A stretch of DNA of 64,000 nt from a virus. Under the pieces are notes generated by a model. That model made no database searches. It was not told the DNA's origin and was given only the letters and a program-made list of their open reading frames with translations. The translations under genes were made by a program, and so were the position numbers. Positions 976 to 63,800 of this stretch are shown here, piece by piece. Within the stretch, counting starts at the first letter, position 1; each line of letters starts with the position of its first letter. The stretch lies in IMG/VR virus record IMGVR_UViG_3300045988_185035. One strand, 5' to 3'.

Positions 976-1063
976 TGGCGCTTGTGGTAGGATTTGAACC
1001 TACGAGCAGTTTCCTACTTCCGGTTTTCTGGACCGGCTCCTTCAGCCTCTCGGACACACAAGC
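976..1063 (-). tRNA. tRNA, type II (Ser-like long variable arm); anticodon loop CCAGAAA is atypical (C33; anticodon would read AGA)
   Basis: Hand-folded cloverleaf: acceptor GCTTGTG/CACAAGC, T-arm GTAGG-TTCAAAT-CCTAC, long variable arm, encoded CCA. Confidence 0.55.
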
Positions 1064-1066
1064 AAA

Positions 1067-1154
1067 TGGCGCAGAGGGTGAGGCTCGAACTCACAAGCCG
1101 CTTTCGCGGCGGCAGCTTAGCAAGCTGCTGCACTACCTATTGTGCGACCACTGC
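1067..1154 (-). tRNA. tRNA-Ser(GCT)
   Basis: Anticodon stem GCAGC/GCTGC with loop TTGCTAA; variable-arm hairpin GCCGC-GAAA-GCGGC; T-arm GTGAG-TTCGAGC-CTCAC; one mismatch in the acceptor stem; CCA encoded. Confidence 0.6.
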
Positions 1155-1213
1155 ATAAAGCACTCACATTTTTCTTGCGTATTAAATTTGATAGAACTAA
1201 CGTAGGTGCGTGT

Positions 1214-1290
1214 TGGTGACCCCTGGCAGACTCGAACTGCCGACTCCACATTGAGAGTGTGGTGACTTAGGCCAACTTGTCGAAGGGGCC
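1214..1290 (-). tRNA. tRNA-Glu(CTC)
   Basis: 5' end GGCCCCTTCGAC resembles bacterial tRNA-Glu; anticodon loop CTCTCAA; T-arm GGCAG-TTCGAGT-CTGCC; CCA encoded. Confidence 0.6.
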
Positions 1291-1293
1291 TTA

Positions 1294-1378
1294 TGGTGTG
1301 CCGGACTGGATTCGAACCAGTGAACCGTAACGGAGCGGTTTTACAGACCGTTAGCTTTAACCTCTTGCATACCGACAC
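1294..1378 (-). tRNA. tRNA-Tyr(GTA), type II
   Basis: Anticodon loop CTGTAAA; long variable arm; T-arm ACTGG-TTCGAAT-CCAGT; acceptor stem carries one G.U pair; CCA encoded. Confidence 0.65.
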
Positions 1379-1402
1379 ATAGAATGAGGCATTAAACCTC
1401 AC

Positions 1403-1478
1403 TGGTGCTCCCGGCTGGAGTCGAACCAGCTGCACGCGGCTCTTCAGACCGCTGCTCTACCAGGTGAGCTACAGAAGC
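1403..1478 (-). tRNA. tRNA-Phe(GAA)
   Basis: GCTTCTGTAGCTCA...GAGC start; anticodon loop CTGAAGA; T-arm GCTGG-TTCGACT-CCAGC; CCA encoded. Confidence 0.75.
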
Positions 1479-1479
1479 A

Positions 1480-1556
1480 TGGTGACCGAAATGGGGCTTG
1501 AACCCATAACCTCAAGCGTGAAGGGCTTGCGACTTAACCAATTCGTCAATTCGGCC
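1480..1556 (-). tRNA. tRNA, possibly Glu(TTC); anticodon loop CCTTCAC has C33
   Basis: Acceptor GGCCGAA/TTCGGTC; T-arm ATGGG-TTCAAGC-CCCAT; anticodon stem CAAGC/GCTTG. Confidence 0.5.
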
Positions 1557-1585
1557 ATGTTATGCCGCGCCCGGCGGCTGAGAAT

Positions 1586-1807
1586 TTAAGCGATAACGAG
1601 AATATCGTCAATTTTAGTATCCAACATCGCGGCTAAAATCACGAGGTTGTCGATAGTAGGAAGAGCCGCACCAGCTTGCCACTTAGCGACGGCCTGCGGA
1701 GTAACGCCGAGGGCATCCGCCATATCTTTAACCTTGATGCCCGCCGCTTTGCGGAGCGTTTTGATGTTGGCACCAGTTTGCTGGATGTCTATAGTAGGAA
1801 TCGTCAT
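1586..1807 (-). CDS. XRE-family helix-turn-helix transcriptional regulator (Cro/CI-like, 73 aa)
   Basis: IKTLRKAAGIKVKDMADALGVTPQAVAKWQAG matches the HTH_XRE pattern; the gene sits inside the tRNA array. Confidence 0.8.
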   Translation of the reverse strand: MTIPTIDIQQTGANIKTLRKAAGIKVKDMADALGVTPQAVAKWQAGAALPTIDNLVILAAMLDTKIDDILVIA

Positions 1808-2106
1808 TTGTATGCTGCCTTTCTTTATGCAGGCAACAAAAAAGCTGCCTGCCGAAATCTCGACAAGCAGCTATGACATGCAGTTATCGTTTAGAAGACG
1901 CACCGCATCTGCGCACTGACTGTGTTGGCCTGTCGAGGAGTATGGGAAATAAAGCTGCGTTCATAGGAACTGAACTCAGATTCATAACTATACTCGTTAA
2001 ACGACATAGTGTTGACAGTGTTGCACAGCATATTGGGTATCTCCTTTCTCGTTTCGTTCTGATTCTATTATAGCACGTTTGCATTGAAACGCAATCAACT
2101 TGTGGT

Positions 2107-2289
2107 TTACTTTTTGCTACACCATTTGGCGGTGTCGGGAATGTATATGGCATCTACTCCATCTTGCTTTGGGCTGGAAGGATTTTCCCTGGTTCCCGGC
2201 AACGGGGTTCCTCGTGCTGCCCTGAATTTGGTGCGATAGCCTGCGCCTTGATGCAGTACACGTTCTGAGCCGAGTAATTTGTCGTTCAT
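2107..2289 (-). CDS. small hypothetical protein (60 aa)
   Basis: ATG preceded by GAAAGGAGTATAC; short ORF between tRNA blocks. Confidence 0.4.
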   Translation of the reverse strand: MNDKLLGSERVLHQGAGYRTKFRAARGTPLPGTRENPSSPKQDGVDAIYIPDTAKWCSKK

Positions 2290-2347
2290 GGTATACTCCT
2301 TTCAAAAACAATAATGAGCATGCACCTTTTGAGTACATACTCACCGT

Positions 2348-2423
2348 TGGCAGGGGTAACACGACTCGAACATGCAACACGCGGTTTTGGAGACCGCTGC
2401 TCTACCACTTGAGCTATACCCCT
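2348..2423 (-). tRNA. tRNA-Trp(CCA)
   Basis: AGGGGTATAGCTCAAGTGGTAGAGC; anticodon loop CTCCAAA; acceptor AGGGGTA/TACCCCT; CCA encoded. Confidence 0.7.
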
Positions 2424-2430
2424 ATATAGA

Positions 2431-2505
2431 TGCTTCAGCTGGGAATTGAACCCAGAAGAACTCGGAGCTTAAATCCGCTGCGTCTGCCAGTTGCGCCACT
2501 GAAGC
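2431..2505 (-). tRNA. tRNA, isotype uncertain; loop TTTAAGC would give anticodon TAA (Leu-type) on a short-variable-arm scaffold; no encoded CCA
   Basis: Acceptor GCTTCAG/CTGAAGC; T-arm CTGGG-TTCAATT-CCCAG; D-arm GCGCAACTGGCAGACGC is identical to the tRNA at 2627-2706. Confidence 0.45.
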
Positions 2506-2534
2506 AAAGTTAGCAGTTATCGCATTGCTGGACG

Positions 2535-2621
2535 TGGTGCTCTCGGTGGGAGTCGAACCCACACTCCATGAATGGAACCAGACTCTGAATCTGGCGCGTC
2601 TGCCTATTCCACCACGAGAGC
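2535..2621 (-). tRNA. tRNA-Leu(CAG), type II
   Basis: Anticodon stem CCAGA/TCTGG with loop TTCAGAG; long variable arm; T-arm GTGGG-TTCGACT-CCCAC; CCA encoded. Confidence 0.65.
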
Positions 2622-2626
2622 TTAAA

Positions 2627-2706
2627 TGGTGTCCAAGGCGGGAATCGAACCCGCAGTAAATACTGGTTCCTTAAACCAGCGCGTCTGCCAGTTGCGCCAC
2701 TTGGAC
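2627..2706 (-). tRNA. tRNA, isotype uncertain (loop TTAAGGA, or a 9-nt loop TTTAAGGAA)
   Basis: Acceptor GTCCAAG/CTTGGAC; T-arm GCGGG-TTCGATT-CCCGC; shares its D-arm with the tRNA at 2431-2505; CCA encoded. Confidence 0.45.
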
Positions 2707-2734
2707 ATAGTGGCAGTTGACGTACTGCCGAACG

Positions 2735-2811
2735 TGGTACTCCCCGAGGGATTTGAACCCTCAAAAATGTGCGGTTTGAGCGCACCGTGTCTGCCATTCC
2801 ACCAGAGGAGC
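2735..2811 (-). tRNA. tRNA with anticodon CAA (Leu-type anticodon) but a short variable arm
   Basis: Acceptor GCTCCTC/GGGGAGT with two G.U pairs; anticodon stem GTGCG/CGCAC with loop CTCAAAC; T-arm GAGGG-TTCAAAT-CCCTC. Confidence 0.5.
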
Positions 2812-2814
2812 TTA

Positions 2815-2890
2815 TGGCGGGCGTAGCAGGGCTTGAACCTGCGACACACGGGTTAACGGCCCGCTGCTCTGCCTACTGAGCTATACACCC
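2815..2890 (-). tRNA. tRNA-Asn(GTT); loop CCGTTAA has C33
   Basis: GGGTGTATAGCTCAGTAGGCAGAGC; T-arm GCAGG-TTCAAGC-CCTGC; CCA encoded. Confidence 0.6.
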
Positions 2891-2921
2891 AAAGAAGTGA
2901 CAGATGACGCTCTGCCGGGCG

Positions 2922-2997
2922 TGGTGCGCTCGCGGGAAGTCGAATCCCGAACCTGCCGATTAAAAGTCGGCTACTCTGCCAGTTGAGTTACGAGCAC
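2922..2997 (-). tRNA. tRNA-Lys(TTT)
   Basis: Anticodon stem GCCGA/TCGGC with loop CTTTTAA; T-arm CGGGA-TTCGACT-TCCCG; acceptor GTGCTCG/CGAGCGC. Confidence 0.7.
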
Positions 2998-3076
2998 TTG
3001 TTGCGCATCTACCGTGCCTTGCTTTGGGAGCACTGTCTTTGTGAATCTCACTTCCGATGCGCCTGAAAGTGATAGG

Positions 3077-3150
3077 TGGCCGAGGATGGTCGAGTTGAAC
3101 GACCAATGTCAGAGCCAAAATCTGATGCCTTACCGTTTGGCAAATCCTCG
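3077..3150 (-). tRNA. tRNA-Gln(TTG)
   Basis: Acceptor CGAGGAT/ATCCTCG; anticodon stem TCAGA/TCTGA with loop TTTTGGC; T-arm GGTCG-TTCAACT-CGACC; CCA encoded. Confidence 0.55.
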
Positions 3151-6536: not shown

Positions 6537-7271
6537 TTACAAACTGTTCATATTTGATGAGCATTCAGGCTTCCAGGTGAGAACCGTATTCAGCACAGAT
6601 TCAAGCTCCTTTCCCTCATACAGCGAGAGCTTATTAAGAGCATGACGCATAAGAGTATCGTAATTCGTAACACTCATATCGAGTGGTATGGTGATGGTAA
6701 CAGTGCCAGAAAGCGGAGTGAGGATGATAGGAGTGTTGTTTCTGAACTTTTTCTCATCTTTCGGCACCCAGCCGTTTGTCAGAAGATAATCATACAAAGC
6801 ATACGGATTCACAGCCGTCACAGAAACACGACCATCCAGCATCTTGTAAGCCCGCAAATACTTGGTTTCTCGAAGCAAGTCTTTCTGGGTCAGCGGATAT
6901 GGCAGCCTGGTAAGGTCCATGTTGCTGCGTAAATCACTCAGTTTGACTTTAGTAGCAACCGGATTCTGACGGATATGCCAGATGTATTCGGCGTAGCTCA
7001 TTCCCTTCCGGCGGGTCAACACATTTACCGCGTCTGCCACCTCTTTCGGGAATTCTGCCCGGATGTCAGCCATTGTAATGGTTGTATCCTCGACAGTGTC
7101 GTGCAGGTACGCAACAGCTTCGGCTACCGGGTCATCGTTCACCCCCTTAGCAACCACCGAGACATGTGCGATAAAGTAGTCTTCCCCTGCTTTGTCCTTC
7201 TGCCCCGCATGGGCTTCTACCGCCCAGCGTTTGGCTTTTTCGACCATCTTGGTCAGTTCTAATTCGGTCAT
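6537..7271 (-). CDS. HD-domain (p)ppGpp hydrolase-like protein (SpoT/Mesh1-type small alarmone hydrolase) with a C-terminal extension
   Basis: AHAGQKDKAGEDYFIAHV...AVAYLHDTVEDT matches the SpoT/RelA HD hydrolase motif; start MTELEL with a GAGGAG ribosome-binding site. Confidence 0.75.
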   Translation of the reverse strand: MTELELTKMVEKAKRWAVEAHAGQKDKAGEDYFIAHVSVVAKGVNDDPVAEAVAYLHDTVEDTTITMADIRAEFPKEVADAVNVLTRRKGMSYAEYIWHIRQNPVATKVKLSDLRSNMDLTRLPYPLTQKDLLRETKYLRAYKMLDGRVSVTAVNPYALYDYLLTNGWVPKDEKKFRNNTPIILTPLSGTVTITIPLDMSVTNYDTLMRHALNKLSLYEGKELESVLNTVLTWKPECSSNMNSL

Positions 7272-7321
7272 ACAAAACTCCTCATAAAACAAGAAAAGCC
7301 GGGATTGACCCGGCAAAATCA

Positions 7322-7410
7322 TGGCGGACGGGGTGGGATTCGAACCCACGGACACTTGCGGCATCGCTGGTTTTCAAGACCAGTTCCATAGGCCACTCGG
7401 ACACCCGACC
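7322..7410 (-). tRNA. tRNA-Ser(TGA), type II
   Basis: GGTCGGGTGTCCGAGTGG...; anticodon stem CTGGT/ACCAG with loop CTTGAAA; long variable arm; T-arm GTGGG-TTCGAAT-CCCAC. Confidence 0.7.
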
Positions 7411-7445
7411 ATGTAGTAAGATGTTAGCCGCAGTTGTCCCCCTGC

Positions 7446-7560
7446 GTTGCCCGTCGTCCGCCCCGTGGAGGCCATCTTTATGGACGACTGACGGAGTTTT
7501 GCTCCGTCTATACCGCAGCCGCTTTCGCCACACGGTATGATTATTACGGCTTGCTTGCGC
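7446..7560. ncRNA. structured repeat unit A (~100 nt): GTTGCCC box, hairpin 1 with CGTGGAGG core loop, hairpins 2 and 3
   Basis: Stem pairs GTCGTCC/GGACGAC, GACGGAG/CTCCGTC and ATACCG/CGGTAT; homologous to the unit at 7713-7830 with compensatory stem changes. Confidence 0.45.
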
Positions 7561-7712
7561 ATCCTGTTCTATCGGCGTGTCCGCCGTAGCGCGGCAAGAT
7601 GAACAATGCTCGTGGTGTAGTTTTACCCGAAAAGGAGACTTCGGAGGCCCCGCGCTATTTCATCATGGAACTTAACTAACGACACAAGAGTATTAGCCAC
7701 AGATGTATCTGT

Positions 7713-7830
7713 GTTGCCCGTCATCCACCTCGTGGAGGTTGCTCTTTTGGATGACTGACGAGGGTGTGCGCCTCGCCAATGCCGCAGCCGGTTTCGCCAC
7801 TCGGCACTGCATTTTTCCGGCTTGACGATG
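7713..7830. ncRNA. structured repeat unit B (tandem paralog of 7446-7560)
   Basis: GTCATCC/GGATGAC, GACGAGG/CCTCGCC and TGCCG/CGGCA stems enclose the same conserved loops (cgtggagg; ccgcagccgSTTTCGCCAC). Confidence 0.45.
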
Positions 7831-7979
7831 CCCTGTGTAAATCGCTTGTCCAAGCGGCGCGGACAAGGCATTCGTCTTCGTGGTCATAGTTAAGGAGTTC
7901 CGCGCAAATGACCGTACTGCGAATCAACAACAGTACAATGCACGCCCAGAGACAGCCGCAGGAAGCGGCATGTTGCTGG

Positions 7980-8055
7980 TGGTGGAAATAGAGGGATTCG
8001 AACCCTCGACCCCCTGCTTGCAAAGCAGGTGCTCTCCCAGCTGAGCTATATCCCC
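7980..8055 (-). tRNA. tRNA-Ala(TGC)
   Basis: GGGGATATAGCTCAGCTGGGAGAGC with G3.U70; anticodon loop TTTGCAA; T-arm GAGGG-TTCGAAT-CCCTC. Confidence 0.75.
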
Positions 8056-8085
8056 ATGATGGCGGGGCATCCCCGCCGGACAGTT

Positions 8086-8469
8086 TTAGGTGTACTGGAA
8101 GTCGCCGTACTGCTTGACCTCGCGCTCCAGGTGGAGCGGAATGGTCTTGGTGCTTCGCTGCGTGATGTCGCTACGTGCCACCAGAGTCTCGCTTACGCCT
8201 GCCGCCTGAAGAACTTCAAACAGATTGGACGGTCCTGTACCAGCATAGCCCGCCGTCAGTCCGTTGACACGCATTGTAAACCCATGCAGACGCGGTGCCA
8301 GGCCGGAGATGAAGTCGAGCTCAACAACGACCTCGTCACTCTTATCGTTCACACGTTTGACTGAGATAGCACGGATGTTCTGGCTTCCGAAGGTCTCAAT
8401 CAGTTTCTTGGCTGCCGCTGCGGTTTCAATCGTGGATGTACCTTCTACATTGATAATTGCCTGCTCCAT
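8086..8469 (-). CDS. hypothetical protein (about 127 aa)
   Basis: Internal ATG (MEQAIINVEG...) preceded by AAAGGAGATGATTCCA; the longer N-terminal ORF extension is Arg-rich and lacks a ribosome-binding site. Confidence 0.5.
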   Translation of the reverse strand: MEQAIINVEGTSTIETAAAAKKLIETFGSQNIRAISVKRVNDKSDEVVVELDFISGLAPRLHGFTMRVNGLTAGYAGTGPSNLFEVLQAAGVSETLVARSDITQRSTKTIPLHLEREVKQYGDFQYT

Positions 8470-8670
8470 TGGAATCATCTCCTTTCTACTTAGAGTTGTC
8501 ATGCGCTGTAGCAGATAACGCTCTGCCATGCGGGGCTTTACGTTGCCCATTCGTGTTCGGTTCCGGCTACGACGACTTCCGTAAGGACTTAGCCAACCGC
8601 CAACAGGTGCATGCCCCCGTTGGAAGCTTCTTGGGCGGATTCTCAAAGAGCGCGTCGCCCAATCGGACCG

Positions 8671-8746
8671 TGGAGCTTAGTGGCAGATTCGAACTGCCCG
8701 CCTGCACATTACGAGTGTGCCGCTCTGCCTAATGAGCTAACCAAGC
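8671..8746 (-). tRNA. tRNA-Thr(CGT)
   Basis: GCTTGGTTAGCTCATTAGGCAGAGC; anticodon stem GCACA/TGTGC with loop CTCGTAA; T-arm GGCAG-TTCGAAT-CTGCC. Confidence 0.7.
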
Positions 8747-9124
8747 ATGGCAGGATGTTTTATGCTTGTTATCATCCCAAATCAGGGCAGCCAACCCTGC
8801 ATCAAGCACCATCCGGCAGCCACGCCGATGGATTCTGTATTGTACCCTCTCCGCCGTTTTCCGGTCTCATTCGCGACTGATACTGAGACTTTCGGATACT
8901 CTCAGGCACAGCACCTGTTTGCCGATTCTTTTAGAGGCTGTCCATTGGCATTCGGACAGCGGACCACAAGTGGACCATGCTCGCTTTATTTAGTGTCGTG
9001 CGTACGGTGACAGCGACGGTGGAGCGGGCAGCGGGATTCATTTCTATTCACGCCACCCATGTGGGCAGCGACAATTGCTATACCCCGCGTGGTGGGTCGC
9101 GTCTGGCTTTCGCTTTTGCGGCCT

Positions 9125-9319
9125 TTATTTTGCTTCGCTGTTTATGTACCCAAACCAGCAGCTTTCGCAGCCAGCGAACCCCGCGCACCCTTCCTCGTAC
9201 ACGTCATTCCATGGCGGACATCTGAAATTCTTTTCAAAGACTTTTACCATGTTCTTTTTGATATCTTCCACGGGTCCGCTGAACTTCATTCCTTTTGTCA
9301 ATTCTTCAAAAACCGTCAT
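9125..9319 (-). CDS. small Cys-rich protein (64 aa)
   Basis: AGGAGGGAAAGAAA-ATG; Cys-rich C-terminal region (CPPW...C...C..C) suggests a zinc-ribbon-like fold; lone CDS within the tRNA array. Confidence 0.55.
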   Translation of the reverse strand: MTVFEELTKGMKFSGPVEDIKKNMVKVFEKNFRCPPWNDVYEEGCAGFAGCESCWFGYINSEAK

Positions 9320-9368
9320 TTTTCTTTCCCTCCTTCTCGCCGCGTGGAGGCTACCAGCGTAGGGATAT

Positions 9369-9443
9369 TGGAGGAGTATATCGGGGTCGAACCGACGTTA
9401 TCTGCTTGGAGGGCAGAGGTATTAACCGTTATACGAATACTCC
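9369..9443 (-). tRNA. tRNA-Gly(TCC)
   Basis: Acceptor GGAGTAT/ATACTCC; anticodon stem TCTGC/GCAGA with loop CCTCCAA; T-arm GTCGG-TTCGACC-CCGAT; CCA encoded. Confidence 0.6.
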
Positions 9444-10604
9444 ACAAGATTGCGGGTGAACCCTCATTTAGCCCCGCCATGATGTTCGTTTAGGAGGTAG
9501 TCGGCCCCGAACGCCATCTTTACACCACCTGACAATCTTGCGAATCTCATCGCTGACTATGCGTGAGAATCCAAGAAAGCGCTTGGGTGTTGGTCAACTT
9601 CAAATCTTAGAGCCCTACCGTTACTTCCCTGTCAATTCGGGCGAACGGTTTTCGATGGGCTGAGTTTGTAAGACTGCGGCTCACTTACCAGCTGCCGTGC
9701 AGCAGTCTCGCCTGTAACGGCTGTGTCGCGTCTGGCTGCGCCCCGGCTTTACGGGGATGCTCGTACGTCTGCATGCTTGATGGGGCGGGATTTGTTGTTT
9801 CCGAACCGTAGTTCGAGAGGAAGCACTCGCCCACACAACTTCCTGGCTTTTAGGGATACCGCTCACGTCGGGAGCCGTGATGCGATTCCCAAGATTGAAA
9901 ACTTAGCCATGTCGCGGGTATTGACCGCAACGATGTTGCCCACTGCTCACCACGAGGAGGTTGTTTTCTGAGCAGTAACGCGGATTGTGTGAACCAGTCC
10001 GCGCAAGCAGCTTCCGCGTATTCCCTGCTGCTCGAGGGGGTTCGTTGAGCGTCCGCTGACGCCGTACCCCGGAGGGAACGTCCAAAGGCGTTTTGCAGTA
10101 CGGAAAAGTTCGGTTTAGAGCCATGAACTGGGCCAAGGACTGCTTACCTTGTCTGGTTTGCCCTTCAGATTGGGTTGAGAGCATTCGTCAGCGACTGTAG
10201 AAATCGTTGTCCACCACCCGCCGCGTGGAGGCTGTCTCATGGGTGGCTGGGCTCGTCGGATGTTTCCGGCGTGCCCAGATAGGCGCTACCTATCGTGTCG
10301 TTCTAAGGCGGGAGCTGCCCGCCATCAGGTTTACCTGTGCATCGGATTATCCCTTTCACTTATGCGGCCTGTCGGACGTAATTAGTGCATAGGCGTTCTC
10401 CTTTGTTCAGATTTTGACATCGGACGCGGTAATTACTGCATCGGAGTGCCCTCCCTGTTAGATTTCGACCTGTTTAACGTCCGTGTCAGGACGTGTTCTG
10501 GATGGGTGGTGTCACACCACCGTGTTCCGTGCTTACGCGTCGCACCTGTACTCCACTATTACGCCTTATCGCGCGATTGACGTGTTCCCTTGTACTACAT
10601 CCAG

Positions 10605-10681
10605 TGGCGACTCGTGCCGGTTTCGAACCGGCGACCTCCAGCGTGACAGGCTGGCGTTCTAACCGTCTGAACTAACGAGCC
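10605..10681 (-). tRNA. tRNA-Asp(GTC)
   Basis: GGCTCGTTAGTTCAGACGGTTAGAAC; anticodon loop CTGTCAC; T-arm GCCGG-TTCGAAA-CCGGC. Confidence 0.7.
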
Positions 10682-10715
10682 ATATATGGCCGATTTAACG
10701 TCGCGGCCGAGACGA

Positions 10716-10790
10716 TGGATACGGGGATGGGACTTGAACCCACAACCACCAGCGTATGAGGCTGGAAAGCTACCATTGCTATACCCCGTG
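10716..10790 (-). tRNA. tRNA-Met(CAT), possibly initiator-like
   Basis: Anticodon stem CCAGC/GCTGG with loop CTCATAC; T-arm GTGGG-TTCAAGT-CCCAT; position 1-72 is an unpaired C.A. Confidence 0.55.
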
Positions 10791-11050
10791 TCAATAACAA
10801 GACATTGGCCGCAAGAACCTTCAAAACTTGCGTTGTCCATCTCTCGCCACGCGGAGGCTGTCTTGTGAGGGATTCTCGGAGATTGCGCAAGGATGTGTAA
10901 AACTATACTGGTGTAGTATGATGTGCTGCAAGCAGCTACAATGCACATTCTCCGAGGTTGTTATTACCGTCTATCAAGTGAGGGTATGTAGCACTATAGT
11001 AGTTGTGATGTGTGTCGGGATGACACTTACAACACTTGATATTCGGTATA

Positions 11051-11126
11051 TGGCGGGTCGTACAGGGCTCGAACCTGTGACATCTTGATTAACAGTCAAG
11101 CGCTCTGCCGACTGAGCTAACGACCC
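11051..11126 (-). tRNA. tRNA-Asn(GTT)
   Basis: GGGTCGTTAGCTCAGTCGGCAGAGC; anticodon loop CTGTTAA; T-arm ACAGG-TTCGAGC-CCTGT. Confidence 0.7.
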
Positions 11127-11296
11127 AGAAATAAGACATTTGCCACGGGGAGCTCAATACCCGTGTTACCGTCACCGCCGCGAGGAGGCTGTCTTATGGT
11201 GACATAGCCCGCAAGATGTGTGTATAGCATCGTATCAAGAAGTTACGATTCATCAAGCGGGATTTCGGATTTCAACGGAGGAACGATGAAAACCAA

Positions 11297-11372
11297 TGGA
11301 GCTTCCGGTGGGACTCGAACCCACAACCTACTGATTACAAGACAGTTGCTCCGCCTGTTGAGCCACAGAAGC
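11297..11372 (-). tRNA. tRNA-Thr(TGT)
   Basis: GCTTCTGTGGCTCAACAGGCGGAGC; anticodon loop CTTGTAA; T-arm GTGGG-TTCGAGT-CCCAC. Confidence 0.7.
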
Positions 11373-28218: not shown

Positions 28219-29226
28219 TTACATAATTCGATGCAGATAGGATTTGTTGATTTCTACGAGCAACTCCTCGATTTTCGCAAAATCGGGTTTTGCCGGGAGT
28301 TCCGTTTTCTTCACGTCACGCTGGAATTTCGTTTCGAGCTGGTCCACAAACTCGAAGAATTCGGGTGCATACGACCCATCCTCACGCATATACTTGCCGT
28401 TGCGGATAGCCAGCAGTTCTTCGTGCTCCTTGTCCCGGCTGGTGATGATGCGTCCTTGCTCCAGAATGTCAAATGCTGTGTAATACAGTCTCACAAGGTG
28501 CATGGCGTGCTTATTGATATGGGCAGCATCCTTTTGCGCTTTCGGATGCTGCGGCTGTTCATACTGGTCGATAGTCGTTGTCAGACCTCGAAGCAGGGAC
28601 TTGAGAGAGTTGACAGGATAGTTACTCAGATTTCCAGAAATCAAGAGAGGATGTTTGCCTTCAGAATCGACATCTTCACTGATGCTGATTTCAAAGACAT
28701 CATCTTTACCCTGACCTGCAATCAGTCGTTCGAGGCTTCTCTTTTCAAACTTGTTTTTGAGTGGCTCAGGAGAAGCGCCGTTCCGCAGTAGCCCCATCTG
28801 CAAGCGTCTGAGCTGGTCGTTCGCAAAGCCACCATAGCTGTATGCAATGCGCCGGGTCAGGAAAAGTTCCTTGTTATCCAGCAGCATCTGTCCTTCTGGA
28901 GTCATGTTCACATACAGCTTCGGGTCGTTGCCAAGAAGCTCAATGACATTAGGGTTACATTGGACAAGCAGGTTGACAAATTTATTGATGGCGTAGATGA
29001 CGGTATCCGTCTGATTATTGATGACTTGCTCGAAGCGATTAAACCCCAAGATTTCAGGCGAACCAGCCGCACCACGGATGTCAACATCTGAACCCTCAAC
29101 ATTCGTACCATAGGCGTGGCTGCCGCCGATAGTCAAAAACAGGATGTTATCTCCCAGATGCTTGTTGGTGCGTAAAAAATCATATTCTTCACGCTGGAGA
29201 ATCGCTTTCAATTCTGCGTTTGTCAT
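28219..29226 (-). CDS. Pol-beta superfamily nucleotidyltransferase (335 aa)
   Basis: LTIGGSHAYGTNVEGSDVDIRG is the GS...DxD nucleotidyltransferase motif. Confidence 0.65.
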   Translation of the reverse strand: MTNAELKAILQREEYDFLRTNKHLGDNILFLTIGGSHAYGTNVEGSDVDIRGAAGSPEILGFNRFEQVINNQTDTVIYAINKFVNLLVQCNPNVIELLGNDPKLYVNMTPEGQMLLDNKELFLTRRIAYSYGGFANDQLRRLQMGLLRNGASPEPLKNKFEKRSLERLIAGQGKDDVFEISISEDVDSEGKHPLLISGNLSNYPVNSLKSLLRGLTTTIDQYEQPQHPKAQKDAAHINKHAMHLVRLYYTAFDILEQGRIITSRDKEHEELLAIRNGKYMREDGSYAPEFFEFVDQLETKFQRDVKKTELPAKPDFAKIEELLVEINKSYLHRIM

Positions 29227-46179: not shown

Positions 46180-47048
46180 TCACGGCGCTCGCGGCCATTG
46201 CCGCACCAATAGTGCCGCCAGGTGGGAGCCTTACCGTTCGCTTCCTTCTTGTAACGCTCCATCAGATAATGGCCCACCACAAAGGTCTTGATATTGACTT
46301 TCTTGGTCTGGCCCTTGAACGTAAAGACAGGACGTTCGTCCTTTTTCGGGCTGTCCAGACGAATCTCCGCGCCTTTGCTGGCAAGGTAGTAGGCACACAG
46401 CATTGCGAGACGGACATAGGGCGTGCCTTCGCCGTAAACAGACGGGATAGCGTCCAGCGTTTCAGGAATAGTGATGTCATCTTTATCGCGGGTCGAAGAT
46501 GCCTTTTCGATGTACTGTTTCGTGCTGCGAGTCGCCTCCGTCAAGCTCTGACCCCCCTTAATCCAAGCGGGAAGGGACAGGAACGCGAAGTTCTCCTTCT
46601 CGTTCTGGACGGGGCCGACAAGGACGATGCCAACGAAGGTGTCATCCGTCTTTGTATCGAACTCGATATGCACGAACATGCCGCAGTAGTCCACGCTGTT
46701 GTACAGAGGCACATAGAAGTTCTTGAACGGCAGGCGCTCCAGCACCTCGCGATGGAGGGTGAGGTCATCGGTATCCATCAGCAGTTCCAGAAAATCCTTG
46801 CCGAAATCGTAGATGACCTTGGTCTGATTCCAGTTGGCGATGGTGTAGCACGGGAAAATCTGGGCAGCCAGCACCTTTTCAAAGCCAGGCTGCTGCATCT
46901 GCTGGGCAACACGCAGGCACTGAAGCGTAGCGCCCTTGGTGAATTCGTCCAGCGTCTTGCCGCAGGGGTCCTCAAAATCGAAGCCGGTACGGGTCGAGCG
47001 AGTAACGGCATTGGCGGTGAGTGCGATACGAACCTGTTCAGAAGTCAT
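46161..47048 (-). CDS. hypothetical protein (295 aa)
   Basis: Six-frame ORF; structured intergenic region containing the CGTGGAGGC motif lies upstream. Confidence 0.6.
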   Translation of the reverse strand: MTSEQVRIALTANAVTRSTRTGFDFEDPCGKTLDEFTKGATLQCLRVAQQMQQPGFEKVLAAQIFPCYTIANWNQTKVIYDFGKDFLELLMDTDDLTLHREVLERLPFKNFYVPLYNSVDYCGMFVHIEFDTKTDDTFVGIVLVGPVQNEKENFAFLSLPAWIKGGQSLTEATRSTKQYIEKASSTRDKDDITIPETLDAIPSVYGEGTPYVRLAMLCAYYLASKGAEIRLDSPKKDERPVFTFKGQTKKVNIKTFVVGHYLMERYKKEANGKAPTWRHYWCGNGRERRECKFSF

Positions 47049-47120: not shown

Positions 47121-47179
47121 CCGTAGCTGTTGCCCGCTGCCCGCCTCGTGGAGGCCCCTTTGCATAAAGGCAGCTGCGG
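47121..47179. promoter_or_regulatory. hairpin-embedded CGTGGAGGC core element (copy g)
   Basis: CCGTAGCTG-ttgcccgctgcccgcctcgtggaggcccctttgcataaagg-CAGCTGCGG. Confidence 0.45.
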
Positions 47180-47191
47180 GGAGAACCCCGC

Positions 47192-49608: not shown

Positions 49609-49661
49609 GGCTTTCTCCCCTTCTTTTTCGTTCTGAAGACTATTTGCCAGGAGCCTTTCCC

Positions 49662-49705
49662 GTTGCCCGCCGCTTGCCCCGTGGAGGCTGTCTTCGTTGA
49701 GCGGC
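49662..49705. promoter_or_regulatory. hairpin-embedded CGTGGAGGCTGTCTT element (copy h)
   Basis: GTTGCCC-GCCGCT-tgccccgtggaggctgtcttcgttg-AGCGGC. Confidence 0.45.
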
Positions 49706-49739
49706 AGCAGCCCTCAATGGGCTGCGTGATGAACCTCAA

Positions 49740-62957: not shown

Positions 62958-63800
62958 TTAGAGATAGTTAGACAGCTTAATGACGGATACTCCGTATGGA
63001 GATGTATCAATGTCGAGGTATGTGCAACCGGAGTTGGGTCTGTCCATGCGAGTGATTTCTTTATGAGGGATATGTCCAAAAATATAGAGCGTATCCCGAT
63101 GACCGGTCAACATTTCGTCTTTATCATAATCAAAGACTCGACCGAACGGGTTGTTGTGAGTTACCACGATTTGTTTGAATCGAGAACCGGGCGGAGGCGT
63201 GATGTTGAGTTCCTGTGCTTGATTCTCAAAGGTAGTTTCAAAGCTTTCCCTCGTTTTTTTCGTACCTGACAGATACTCATAGATGGTATGTTCTGCTTCG
63301 TACGGTGTGCCACACATATTGTCGAGCAGATAGGCGACCATCTGCCAAAGCCCATCGTTCTCCCACGCGAGTGTGTAGGTAATAAAAAGCTTCTGCCACC
63401 CGGCGAATGTATGAGGTCTTGCGGCGAGAATCTTCTTTCTTTCCTCCATGCTGCATCTGAGCGTTTCGAGTTCTTCTTTTGTTCTGAAGATGTGCTCTCC
63501 TTGCTTGTAGTGTAGGAAGACCCAGGCTGCGAGCTTTCTGACGGTCGGAGACTGTGCGAGTGCTTTATAGTATCGAAGCATCTGCCTATGTTCGTATTCG
63601 TGGTTGCCAAGAACGAGATGGACTGTATCTGGATGCTCCGTAATGAAGTTGACGACCTTTGCGTTTTCCTTGCCACGGTCTACTACATCACCAACGAAGA
63701 CGAGCTTGTCGGTTTCTTCATTCCATCCGGCGGCCATGAGGGATTCGATGAGACCTTTGTAGTTCCCATGCACATCTCCTGCCACATAGATGTCGCTCAT
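62958..63800 (-). CDS. Ser/Thr protein phosphatase (calcineurin-like metallophosphoesterase, lambda-PPase type)
   Basis: GDVHGN ... GDVVDRG ... GNHE motifs in canonical order. Confidence 0.85.
   Translation of the reverse strand: MSDIYVAGDVHGNYKGLIESLMAAGWNEETDKLVFVGDVVDRGKENAKVVNFITEHPDTVHLVLGNHEYEHRQMLRYYKALAQSPTVRKLAAWVFLHYKQGEHIFRTKEELETLRCSMEERKKILAARPHTFAGWQKLFITYTLAWENDGLWQMVAYLLDNMCGTPYEAEHTIYEYLSGTKKTRESFETTFENQAQELNITPPPGSRFKQIVVTHNNPFGRVFDYDKDEMLTGHRDTLYIFGHIPHKEITRMDRPNSGCTYLDIDTSPYGVSVIKLSNYL

What the first reader, a model, noticed from the sequence alone, without database searches (positions are those of the whole stretch)
7440..11210. Family of at least 9 hairpin-embedded CGTGGAGGCTGTCTT elements with covarying stems, including two tandem ~100-nt three-hairpin units
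A 15-20-nt core (CCsCGTGGAGGCTGTCTTat) recurs at about 7461, 7731, 9345, 9951, 10221, 10850, 11180, 47146 and 49677, with a degenerate copy near 8614. Most copies follow a GTTGYCC box. In every copy the core sits in the loop of a hairpin whose stem sequence differs between copies but stays complementary:
- GTCGTCC/GGACGAC
- GTCATCC/GGATGAC
- GTCACC/GGTGAC
- ACTGCTCA/TGAGCAGT
- GCCGCT/AGCGGC
- CCGTAGCTG/CAGCTGCGG
That pattern is classic covariation, pointing to a structured RNA or a structure-specific protein site rather than simple sequence duplication. Copies a and b belong to two about 100-nt paralogous units (7446-7560, 7713-7830) with two more covarying hairpins and a second conserved loop (CCGCAGCCGsTTTCGCCAC). 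The plus-strand loop contains GGAGG, a Shine-Dalgarno-like string, followed 7-9 nt later by ATG, TTG or GTG. The short ORFs that follow are not conserved (MDD*, MVT*, and so on). The minus-strand version shows CCUCC, an anti-SD-like string. Seven copies lie between tRNA genes; two lie in leaders of protein genes. I cannot assign this to any known RNA family or promoter type.
Basis: seen in the sequence. Interest (0 to 1): 0.8.

Follow-up and report, generated by a model that had tools for sequence, protein, structure and literature searches.

The report
HDV-like self-cleaving ribozymes in phage
The repeated "hairpin with a conserved loop" is a set of eight HDV-like self-cleaving ribozymes on the minus strand of a gut phage, a known RNA family that here most likely cuts long tRNA, non-coding RNA and mRNA transcripts into separate units.

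Summary
The repeat family is real and is a structured RNA, but it can be assigned to a known family. All eight complete copies lie on the minus strand, like every tRNA and nearly every gene. All eight match Rfam RF02682, the HDV-like ribozyme of F. prausnitzii: three reach the gathering score and five score 29-43 bits.

- The "conserved loop" is P2-5' plus P3/L3.
- The "GTTGYCC box" is P1.1/J1.1-4 (GGRCAAC).
- An unnoticed TTAGCC box is J4/2, which carries the catalytic C.

In 62 distinct relatives from viral contigs, P1, P2, P3, P4 and even P1.1 covary, and the catalytic C never varies. The copy at 9345 is only a P3/L3 fragment. The copy at 8614 is not supported.

These are not theta ribozymes. 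They keep P4, and none cuts at a tRNA 3' end. Three instead sit 4-6 nt upstream of a tRNA, two sit between protein genes, and three border conserved non-coding RNAs.

Every copy is preceded by a helix that ends 0-4 nt before the cleavage site. I infer transcript punctuation and 3'-end formation for the upstream unit.

The two "extra hairpins" belong to a conserved, pseudoknotted RNA of about 200 nt that has no Rfam match. That RNA is the more novel item.

The parts
7416..7488 (-). HDV-like ribozyme a. P1 is GUCGUCC/GGACGAC, P2 AAGAUG/CAUCUU, P3 GCC/GGC, L3 UCCACGG, P1.1 GG, P4 GCAG/CUGC, J4/2 GGCUAA. Its 3' end lies 5 nt before tRNA-Ser.
   Evidence: RF02682 45.3 bits, gathering score 44; model R1 96.7 bits
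7684..7755 (-). HDV-like ribozyme b. P1 is GUCAUCC/GGAUGAC. It is followed directly by the paralogous non-coding RNA 7683-7489.
   Evidence: RF02682 51.2 bits
9894..9976 (-). HDV-like ribozyme c. P1 is ACUGCUC/GAGCAGU and P4 is long. It is followed by a 450-nt conserved non-coding stretch and then tRNA-Gly.
   Evidence: RF02682 44.6 bits; R1 35.8 bits
10175..10247 (-). HDV-like ribozyme d. P1 is GCCACCC/GGGUGGU with a G1-U pair, J4/2 is the variant GACGAA, and P4 is weak. It is the least canonical copy.
   Evidence: RF02682 34.4 bits, below the gathering score; R1 32.6 bits, E 1.6e-5; the same GACGAA variant recurs in relatives
10797..10873 (-). HDV-like ribozyme e. P1 is AUCCCUC/GAGAGAU with one C-A mismatch. 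Its 3' end lies 6 nt before tRNA-Met.
   Evidence: RF02682 36.7 bits; R1 40.1 bits
11131..11203 (-). HDV-like ribozyme f. P1 is GUCACC/GGUGAC and P2 is AUAAGACA/UGUCUUAU. Its 3' end lies 4 nt before tRNA-Asn.
   Evidence: RF02682 29 bits; R1 34.6 bits
47104..47174 (-). HDV-like ribozyme g, between two protein genes. The upstream ORF 47788-47192 ends in TGA, then comes a hairpin, then A, then the cleavage site. SD GGAGG and the ATG at 47048 lie 55 nt downstream.
   Evidence: RF02682 34.3 bits; R1 40.6 bits; context
49634..49705 (-). HDV-like ribozyme h, between the SPFH/flotillin-like gene (51518-49740) and ORF 49608-49216.
   Evidence: RF02682 43 bits; R1 42 bits; context
9339..9355 (-). Remnant of a ribozyme, P3/L3 core only. 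It sits just 3' of tRNA-Gly-CCA and is overlapped by the SD and start of ORF 9319-9125.
   Evidence: Matches model positions 13-29 only; 15.7 bits with a broken P1
7756..7979 (-). Conserved pseudoknotted non-coding RNA between tRNA-Ala and ribozyme b. It ends with a helix plus A at the cleavage site.
   Evidence: Found in more than 50 loci, always ending at a ribozyme; 99.7% paired, 14 of 48 pairs compensatory, two pseudoknots; no Rfam hit
7489..7683 (-). Paralogue of the same non-coding RNA, between ribozymes b and a.
   Evidence: nhmmer E 5.7e-11 against the profile of the b-type RNA; alignment A8
47176..47191 (-). Hairpin GCGGGG-UUCU-CCCCGC immediately after the stop codon. It ends 1 nt before the cleavage site of ribozyme g and has no U-tract.
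49707..49725 (-). Hairpin GCAGCCC-AUUGA-GGGCUGC ending 1 nt before the cleavage site of ribozyme h. It has no U-tract.
7298..7314 (-). The only canonical intrinsic-terminator-like site on the minus strand between 11500 and 7298. It lies just after tRNA-Ser and is the likely end of the tRNA/ribozyme operon.

Best explanation
The elements are eight HDV-like (delta-like) self-cleaving ribozymes of the P4-containing type modelled by Rfam RF02682. They are encoded on the minus strand of a human-gut phage of Clostridia.

How each one works (established chemistry of the family, not tested here): each folds into the nested double pseudoknot P1-P1.1-P2-P3-P4. It then cuts its own transcript at the 5' edge of P1, between an A or U at -1 and a G or A at +1, using the invariant C of J4/2. 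The upstream RNA is left with a 2',3'-cyclic phosphate. The downstream RNA is left with a 5'-OH and keeps the ribozyme as its 5' end.

Inferred role in this phage: punctuation of long polycistronic transcripts.
- Each ribozyme sits directly after the closing helix of the upstream unit, which is a conserved non-coding RNA, a tRNA trailer or an mRNA 3' hairpin. That gives the upstream unit a precise, helix-capped 3' end without stopping transcription.
- The downstream unit starts with a compact ribozyme fold. In front of tRNA-Ser, tRNA-Met and tRNA-Asn, RNase P would then remove that fold together with the 4-6 nt linker.

Shown here: family identity, strand, architecture, covariation and genomic arrangement. 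Inferred: that the ribozymes cleave, and what the cleavage is for.
For: Identity:
- RF02682 hits all 8 copies on the minus strand, with E from 1e-8 to 0.015. Three reach the gathering score.
- My own model separates 8 copies from the background by more than 5 orders of magnitude in E-value.

Structure, on 62 distinct relatives:
- P1 is 99.5% paired and all 7 pairs show compensatory changes.
- P4 is 97% paired.
- P2 is 77% paired and all 6 pairs show compensatory changes.
- In P1.1, C-G becomes U-A in 2 sequences.
- P2 and P1.1 were not part of the model.
- Slid controls pair at 35-51%.
- The catalytic C is invariant in 62 of 62, although it was not in the harvesting pattern.

Strand: 72 G-U pairs; all 22 tRNAs are on the minus strand.

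One transcription unit: there is no terminator-like site on the minus strand between about 11400 and 7314.

Upstream helix:
- All 8 window copies have a helix ending 0-4 nt before the cleavage site, 7 of them within 0-2 nt.
- In relatives, 30 of 42 unique contexts have one, against 7.7% of 1680 random windows.
- The -1 nucleotide is always A or U.

Intercistronic layout: g and h read stop codon, hairpin, N, cleavage site, ribozyme, SD, ATG.

Placement: the densely packed tRNA cluster at 976-3150 has no ribozyme. Ribozymes occur only where a non-tRNA unit precedes.

Precedents:
- Clustered hammerhead ribozymes flanking genes in prophages were proposed to process long phage transcripts (PMC3088659).
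- Theta ribozymes cut after the tRNA acceptor helix plus discriminator (PMC10879173).
Against: - No cleavage assay or transcript-end data exist for these sequences.
- Five of the eight copies fall below the Rfam gathering score.
- Copy d has a weak P4. Copies c and e start with A rather than the usual G.
- The upstream-helix statistic counts contexts that are related by descent, so the p-value overstates independence.
- All relatives were harvested with a pattern taken from the ribozyme core. Conservation of L3, P3 and GGRCAAC is therefore partly circular.
- The data do not separate whether the benefit falls on the upstream RNA (3' end) or the downstream RNA (5' end).
Confidence: 0.8

Rival explanations
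1. Theta-type function: the ribozymes mature tRNA 3' ends by cutting right after the discriminator base, as described for minimal HDV-like theta ribozymes of gut phages.
For: The same ribozyme superfamily and the same habitat (PMC10879173). In relatives, a few copies do abut a tRNA 3' end at 0-2 nt: L032, L036 and L046 after a CCA-less tRNA-Thr, and L042 after tRNA-Leu.
Against: In the window the nearest upstream tRNA 3' end is 93 nt from a cleavage site; the others are 177-491 nt away or absent. The window's tRNAs encode CCA. All copies have P4, whereas theta ribozymes are defined as minimal and P4-less. Only 4 of 68 unique relatives show the theta arrangement, against about 23 of 68 with a tRNA 2-13 nt downstream.
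Confidence: 0.08
2. The benefit is mainly for the downstream RNA. The cleaved ribozyme acts as a structured 5'-OH cap that protects the following tRNA precursor or mRNA from 5'-end-dependent decay and insulates its folding or translation from upstream sequence.
For: Three copies lie 4-6 nt before tRNAs and two lie 25-55 nt before SD/ATG. G1 is buried in P1. This is not exclusive of the main explanation.
Against: Downstream partners are heterogeneous (tRNA, ORF, non-coding RNA, another ribozyme). The upstream helix is the constant partner. In Bacillus subtilis, by my own recollection of Collins et al. 2007, the 5'-OH left by the glmS ribozyme triggers RNase J1 decay rather than protection.
Confidence: 0.3
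3. Allosteric ribozymes: the conserved pseudoknotted RNA upstream of copies a and b is a sensor that controls cleavage of the adjacent ribozyme.
For: The upstream RNA is highly conserved and has two pseudoknots. Its last helix abuts the cleavage site.
Against: The other six ribozymes have unrelated upstream sequences. No helix is shared between the upstream RNA and the ribozyme. There is no known aptamer match.
Confidence: 0.05
4. A DNA-level element, such as a promoter for a phage polymerase, a protein-binding inverted repeat or a miniature mobile repeat.
For: The elements are repeated and intergenic, often just upstream of genes. At first sight GGGCAAC...GGCUAA resembles -35 and -10 boxes (my first reading).
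Against: The stems differ in sequence but keep pairing through G-U pairs that are valid on one strand only. Two pseudoknotted helices covary. The invariant positions coincide with the HDV catalytic core. There is a significant covariance-model match to a ribozyme family.
Confidence: 0.02

Closest known systems
Rfam RF02682 HDV-F-prausnitzii (drz-Fpra type HDV-like ribozyme)
   Same: The same architecture, including P4. The same conserved L3 (UCC...), P1.1 GG, GCAAC and J4/2 GGCUAA. Covariance-model matches for all eight copies, three at or above the gathering score. Hosts are Clostridia of the gut.
   Different: The described F. prausnitzii example lies upstream of glmM and was discussed as a possible metabolite-linked regulator (PMC6765202). 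Here there are eight copies in one phage, in tRNA, non-coding RNA and intercistronic positions.
Theta ribozymes (minimal HDV-like ribozymes of gut Caudoviricetes; Kienbeck et al. 2024, PMC10879173)
   Same: HDV-like ribozymes in gut phages, on the same strand as neighbouring genes and embedded in tRNA regions. Cleavage comes directly after a helix plus one unpaired nucleotide.
   Different: Theta ribozymes lack P4, and their cleavage site lies within 5 nt of a tRNA 3' end. They occur mostly in Bacteroidota phages and are often linked to suppressor tRNAs. The window's copies have P4, none is at a tRNA 3' end, three are 5' leaders of tRNAs, and ARAGORN calls no suppressor anticodon among the 22 tRNAs.
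Clustered hammerhead ribozymes flanking genes in prophages (Perreault et al. 2011, PMC3088659)
   Same: Several self-cleaving ribozymes in one phage transcript, placed between genes. They were proposed to cut long phage RNAs into gene-length units.
   Different: A different ribozyme class. A hammerhead cuts within its own structure, whereas an HDV-like ribozyme cuts at its own 5' edge and so leaves nothing on the upstream product.
Genomic HDV ribozyme (RF00094)
   Same: The fold. The string GGGCAAC after P1, the L3 CCUCC motif and the J4/2 C-(G/U)-A-A motif. Weak covariance-model matches at copies c, f and d of 31.5, 24.8 and 20.8 bits.
   Different: All three scores are below the RF00094 gathering score of 50. 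The context is a DNA phage, not rolling-circle replication of an RNA genome.

Membership tests
HDV-like (delta-like) self-cleaving ribozymes | Nested double pseudoknot with helices P1, P2, P3, P1.1 (and P4) in the order P1-P2-P3-P3'-P1'-P1.1-P4-P4'-P2' | tested here: met
   All five helices are present in all 8 copies. On 62 distinct relatives 93% of cells are paired and 18 of 21 pairs show compensatory changes. P2 and P1.1 were not in the model.
HDV-like (delta-like) self-cleaving ribozymes | Catalytic cytosine at the start of J4/2 | tested here: met
   The C of GGCNAA or GACGAA is present in all 8 window copies and invariant in 62 of 62 distinct relatives.
HDV-like (delta-like) self-cleaving ribozymes | L3 C residues pair with the GG that follows P1 (P1.1) | tested here: met
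   UCC in L3 and GG after P1 occur in all copies. Two relatives have U-A in place of C-G.
HDV-like (delta-like) self-cleaving ribozymes | The first nucleotide of the ribozyme is a G paired at the base of P1 (often G-U) | tested here: inconclusive
   G1 in copies a, b, d, f, g and h, with a G-U pair in d. Copies c and e have an A1-U pair. In relatives there are 49 G and 13 A.
HDV-like (delta-like) self-cleaving ribozymes | Site-specific self-cleavage giving a 2',3'-cyclic phosphate and a 5'-OH | not testable with these tools
   Needs an in vitro transcription and cleavage assay, or end-specific RNA-seq.
Rfam RF02682 HDV-F-prausnitzii | Covariance-model score at or above the gathering score of 44 bits | tested here: inconclusive
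   Met by b (51.2), a (45.3) and c (44.6). Not met by h (43), e (36.7), d (34.4), g (34.3) and f (29). All have E of 0.015 or lower.
Theta ribozymes | Minimal form without the P4 domain | tested here: not met
   The model pairs P4 in seven copies and not in d, where my manual parse finds only a weak 3-bp candidate; c has the longest P4 (about 7 bp or more). Definition from PMC10879173.
Theta ribozymes | Cleavage site within 5 nt of a tRNA 3' end | tested here: not met
   The nearest upstream tRNA 3' ends are 93, 177, 224 and 491 nt away for copies f, e, b and a. For d and c the distances are 357 and 628 nt, taken from the window coordinates and from the identical L018 copies. There is none for g and h. 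Only 4 of 68 relatives meet the criterion.
Intrinsic (Rho-independent) terminators | G+C-rich hairpin followed by a U-tract | tested here: not met
   The hairpins before the cleavage sites are followed by one A or U and then the ribozyme. None was called by the terminator scan.

The most novel reading that the evidence does not exclude
The ribozymes may be general 'processing terminators' that give exact 3' ends to non-tRNA RNAs as well. Each such end would be a helix, one nucleotide and a 2',3'-cyclic phosphate, which is the geometry theta ribozymes produce on tRNAs.

The RNA they most consistently terminate is an undescribed class. It is about 200-225 nt long, has two pseudoknots and occurs here as two tandem paralogues (7979-7756 and 7683-7489). 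Its function would depend on that ribozyme-made end. For example, it could be a tRNA-like substrate for end-healing, CCA-adding or ligation enzymes; the phage encodes an RlaP-family RNA-repair nucleotidyltransferase.

The stretches between two successive cleavage sites (d to c, and b to a) would carry 5'-OH and 2',3'-cyclic-phosphate ends. An RtcB-type ligase could circularise such fragments.
Probability: 0.25. Interest if true: 0.7.

Novelty: new member of a known kind. Interest (0 to 1): 0.45.

Why it matters
The finding turns an unexplained repeat into a testable RNA-processing map for a gut phage. It gives eight predicted cleavage sites that define the ends of tRNA precursors, two mRNAs and several conserved non-coding RNAs.

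It also shows that P4-containing HDV-like ribozymes in Clostridia phages occupy positions that the theta-ribozyme survey did not consider. These are 5' leaders of tRNAs, intercistronic sites and the 3' ends of structured non-coding RNAs.

A shared rule of "helix plus one nucleotide, then cleavage" links all these contexts.

Finally, it flags an unclassified pseudoknotted RNA that always ends at such a ribozyme.

Tried and rejected
- **Promoter reading.** I first read GGGCAAC...GGCUAA upstream of the tRNAs as possible -35 and -10 boxes. I dropped this once Rfam matched a ribozyme and the boxes mapped to P1.1 and J4/2.
- **MAFFT alignments.** MAFFT alignments of the eight copies (A1, A2) put P1 and the 3' side of copy c out of register. 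I instead seeded a model from a and b only and realigned to it.
- **Genome scan.** A scan of bacterial genomes with the degenerate core pattern gave almost only chance matches in high-GC genomes. The model confirmed only 3 of 80 loci, all gut Clostridia MAGs.
- **Second viral scan.** A scan with the conserved motif of the non-coding RNA (GTGGCGAANNYGGYTGCG) added 73 new loci, of which only one was a true homologue. It therefore could not test whether that RNA ever occurs without a ribozyme.
- **Rfam at permissive thresholds.** Rfam gave nothing for the upstream non-coding RNA or for relatives.
- **Megablast.** Megablast of the region against deposited phages found only a tRNA fragment.
- **Literature.** Searches found no description of HDV-like ribozymes as tRNA 5' leaders or of the upstream-helix rule. 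My recollection that the Drum motif is ribozyme-associated was wrong.
- **Coding check.** Coding potential of the non-coding RNA was rejected. The 64-aa ORF 7887-7693 runs through ribozyme b, and its ATG and reading frame are not conserved.

Full report
**1. The observation**

The 15-nt core recurs far more often than chance allows. With up to 3 mismatches there are 7 matches against 1.66 expected, and none of 100 shuffles reaches 7.

All 22 tRNA genes in the window are on the minus strand, as are 54 of the 70 non-overlapping ORFs picked by a greedy longest-first choice. I therefore read the elements on the minus strand.

- "Stem, conserved loop, stem" becomes 5'-P1, AAGACAGCC-UCCACGN-GGC, P1'-3'.
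- The "GTTGYCC box" becomes GGRCAAC immediately 3' of the stem.
- A further conserved box, GGCUAA, follows a variable hairpin.

**2. Identity**

Rfam's gathering-threshold scan reports RF02682, the HDV ribozyme from F. prausnitzii, on the minus strand at 7755-7684 (51.2 bits), 7488-7415 (45.3) and 9976-9894 (44.6). Permissive scans add five more copies:
- 10873-10798 (36.7 bits)
- 10247-10181 (34.4)
- 11203-11132 (29)
- 49705-49634 (43)
- 47174-47104 (34.3)

I built a covariance model from copies a and b alone and ran it without filters over the whole window. It recovers exactly these eight, with E from 1e-19 to 1.6e-5. Nothing else scores below E = 1.8.

Each element parses as an HDV-like ribozyme:
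- J1/2 plus the 5' strand of P2, the "AAGACA" part of the core.
- P3, RCC/GGY.
- L3, UCCNCGN.
- P1.1, the GG that pairs with the L3 CC.
- GCAAC.
- P4, of variable length.
- J4/2, GGCNAA or GACGAA, with the catalytic C.
- The 3' strand of P2.

**3. Is the structure supported independently?**

A pattern taken from the core harvested 120 loci from viral contigs. The eight-copy model finds 184 ribozymes in 99 of them. The best 150 were aligned as A6, which has 62 distinct rows.

I counted pairs with P2 and P1.1 added as pseudoknots. Neither was in the model.

| Helix | Cells paired | Compensatory change |
|---|---|---|
| P1 | 99.5% | all 7 pairs |
| P4 | 97% | all 3 pairs |
| P2 | 77%, despite register slips | all 6 pairs |
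| P1.1 | 100% | C-G becomes U-A in two sequences |

Sliding the 3' partners drops pairing to 35-51%.

The catalytic C, which was not part of the harvesting pattern, is invariant in 62 of 62. Seventy-two G-U pairs fix the strand. On the eight window copies alone, 97.9% of cells pair and 10 of 13 pairs show compensatory changes.

Caveat: conservation of L3, P3 and GGRCAAC is partly imposed by the harvesting pattern, and the rows are related by descent.

**4. The doubtful copies**

The 9345 copy keeps only P3/L3 (9339-9355). It has no P1 and no J4/2, and the ribosome-binding site of ORF 9319-9125 overlaps it. It is a remnant. The 8614 "degenerate copy" scores 5 bits and is not a member.

**5. Host and relatives**

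The window is a phage, with a DNA polymerase, a helicase and a tail protein. Its polymerase is closest, at about 46% identity, to human-gut phages of Oscillospiraceae, Evtepia and Acutalibacteraceae.

Among 80 pattern matches in bacterial genomes, only three loci hold a ribozyme that the model confirms. They come from Ruminococcus, Eubacteriales and Lachnospiraceae MAGs.

**6. Arrangement**

On the minus strand, running from high to low coordinates, the order is:

1. tRNA-Thr-CCA
2. 93-nt spacer
3. ribozyme f
4. tRNA-Asn
5. 177-nt spacer
6. ribozyme e
7. tRNA-Met
8. tRNA-Asp
9. 357-nt spacer
10. ribozyme d
11. 198-nt spacer
12. ribozyme c
13. 450-nt spacer
14. tRNA-Gly
15. ribozyme remnant
16. 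small ORF (9319-9125), then about 380 nt of non-coding sequence
17. tRNA-Thr
18. ORF
19. tRNA-Ala
20. 224-nt RNA
21. ribozyme b
22. 195-nt RNA
23. ribozyme a
24. tRNA-Ser
25. terminator at 7314-7298

No other terminator-like site lies on that strand between about 11400 and 7314. This is plausibly one transcript of about 4 kb.

Ribozymes a, e and f end 5, 6 and 4 nt before the 5' end of a tRNA.

Ribozymes g and h are intercistronic. Each is laid out as stop codon, hairpin, one nucleotide, cleavage site, ribozyme, 25-55 nt, SD, ATG.

The tight cluster of 14 tRNAs at 976-3150 has no ribozyme.

In relatives, a tRNA starts 2-13 nt after the ribozyme in about 23 of 68 unique ribozymes. The theta arrangement, with cleavage 0-2 nt after a tRNA 3' end, occurs in 4 of 68.

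**7. The constant partner is an upstream helix**

In all eight window copies a helix ends 0-4 nt before the cleavage site, and in seven of them 0-2 nt before it. Across relatives, 30 of 42 unique upstream contexts have a stable helix ending 0-1 nt before the site, against 7.7% of 1680 random windows. The -1 base is always A or U.

Where a tRNA is directly upstream, that helix is the acceptor stem and the single nucleotide is the discriminator. The geometry "helix, one nucleotide, cut" is thus common to the theta context and to the contexts seen here.

The upstream helix could have either of two roles:
- It could protect the new 3' end.
- It could keep upstream sequence from misfolding the ribozyme. 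By my own recollection (Chadalavada et al. 2000), such an effect is known for the genomic HDV ribozyme.

**8. Mechanism**

The established chemistry of the family is that the J4/2 cytosine and a divalent ion promote attack of the 2'-OH of nucleotide -1. This yields a 2',3'-cyclic phosphate on the upstream product and a 5'-OH on G1 (PMC6765202).

I infer co-transcriptional punctuation. The upstream unit receives an exact, helix-capped end without terminating transcription. The downstream unit begins with the ribozyme fold. In front of tRNAs, RNase P would remove that fold.

This parallels the proposal made for clustered hammerhead ribozymes in prophages (PMC3088659).

**9. Comparison with known families**

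These are members of the HDV-like family and closest to RF02682.

They are not theta ribozymes as defined. Theta ribozymes lack P4 and cut within 5 nt of a tRNA 3' end (PMC10879173). Both features were tested here and not met. The theta paper does not mention ribozymes upstream of tRNAs, and I found no other description of this.

**10. The "two extra hairpins"**

These are the 3' end of a conserved RNA that fills the whole interval between tRNA-Ala and ribozyme b (7979-7756). A paralogue lies before ribozyme a (7683-7489).

A profile of this RNA finds it in more than 50 loci. Every full-length match ends at a ribozyme cleavage site.

A structure with five helices and two pseudoknots (GCGCGG/CCGCGC and AGCCG/CGGCU) is 99.7% paired, and 14 of 48 pairs show compensatory changes. 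Only four lineages are represented, however.

The RNA is not coding, since the ATG and reading frame are not conserved. It has no Rfam match. I could not assign it.

**11. Verdict**

The finding is a correct detection of a covarying structured RNA. The RNA belongs to a known ribozyme family, so the ribozymes themselves are ordinary in kind.

The arrangement is a modest extension of what is described. It comprises tRNA 5' leaders, intercistronic sites and the upstream-helix rule. The ribozyme-terminated pseudoknotted RNA is the part most worth following up.

Noticed in passing
window 7756-7979 (-) and 7489-7683 (-): A conserved RNA of about 200-225 nt with two covarying pseudoknots and an invariant GUGGCGAAA...CGGCUGCG segment, present as two tandem paralogues. 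It always ends at an HDV-like ribozyme cleavage site, has no Rfam match and is not coding.
   Followed up: partly
window 9444-9893 (-): A 450-nt stretch between ribozyme c and tRNA-Gly. It is 79-94% identical in 29 distinct homologues from related phage contigs (331-450 nt) and has no conserved ORF. It is probably another large non-coding RNA, bounded by a ribozyme at its 5' end and by RNase P at its 3' end.
   Followed up: partly
window 8747-9124 (-): A 378-nt non-coding stretch upstream of tRNA-Thr(cgt), 81-90% identical in 31 distinct homologues. It includes a tRNA-like string (GCGGGGUAUAGCAAUUGUCGC..., about 9040-9100) that neither ARAGORN nor Rfam calls as a tRNA.
   Followed up: partly
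window 10380-10480 (-), within spacer 10248-10604: Two tandem units of about 50 nt, each with a strong Shine-Dalgarno sequence, an AUG, one codon and UAA: AGGGAGGGCACUCCGAUGCAGUAA and AAAGGAGAACGCCUAUGCACUAA. These are start-stop-like mini-ORFs inside the tRNA operon.
   Followed up: no
window 28219-29226 (-): A 335-aa protein matching PF10127 RlaP, the RNA-repair-pathway Pol-beta-family nucleotidyltransferase (E 9e-20). This may be relevant to RNAs that carry ribozyme-made ends. No RNA ligase, RtcB or CCA-adding enzyme turned up among the roughly 40 larger ORFs scanned.
   Followed up: partly
window 6537-7289 (-): An HD-domain protein (Pfam HD_4; weak matches to the SpoT/RelA hydrolase region; phrog_990 metal-dependent phosphohydrolase), encoded directly downstream of tRNA-Ser and the operon terminator.
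   Followed up: partly
window 62958-63800 (-): A calcineurin-like metallophosphoesterase with weak matches to ApaH-type and Pnkp-phosphatase-type models. A role in healing 2',3'-cyclic-phosphate ends is conceivable but untested.
   Followed up: no
window 11297-11372 (-) versus L032 4837-4909 and L046: The window's tRNA-Thr(tgt) encodes CCA and is followed by a 93-nt structured spacer. In related contigs the tRNA-Thr(tgt) at the same position in the array lacks CCA and is followed at distance 0 by a ribozyme, the theta-like layout. The two solutions for the same tRNA appear to be interchangeable over evolution.
   Followed up: partly
L064 1410-1809, L045 372-771, L042 1019-1418: Related phage contigs carry a full-length tmRNA gene (RF00023, 86-88 bits) inside the same tRNA arrays. 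None is detected in the window.
   Followed up: no
window 976-3150 (-): A second, tightly packed cluster of 14 tRNA genes, most separated by spacers of 1-79 nt (one gap of 791 nt, 1557-2347). It contains no ribozymes, in contrast to the ribozyme-rich array at 7322-11372.
   Followed up: yes
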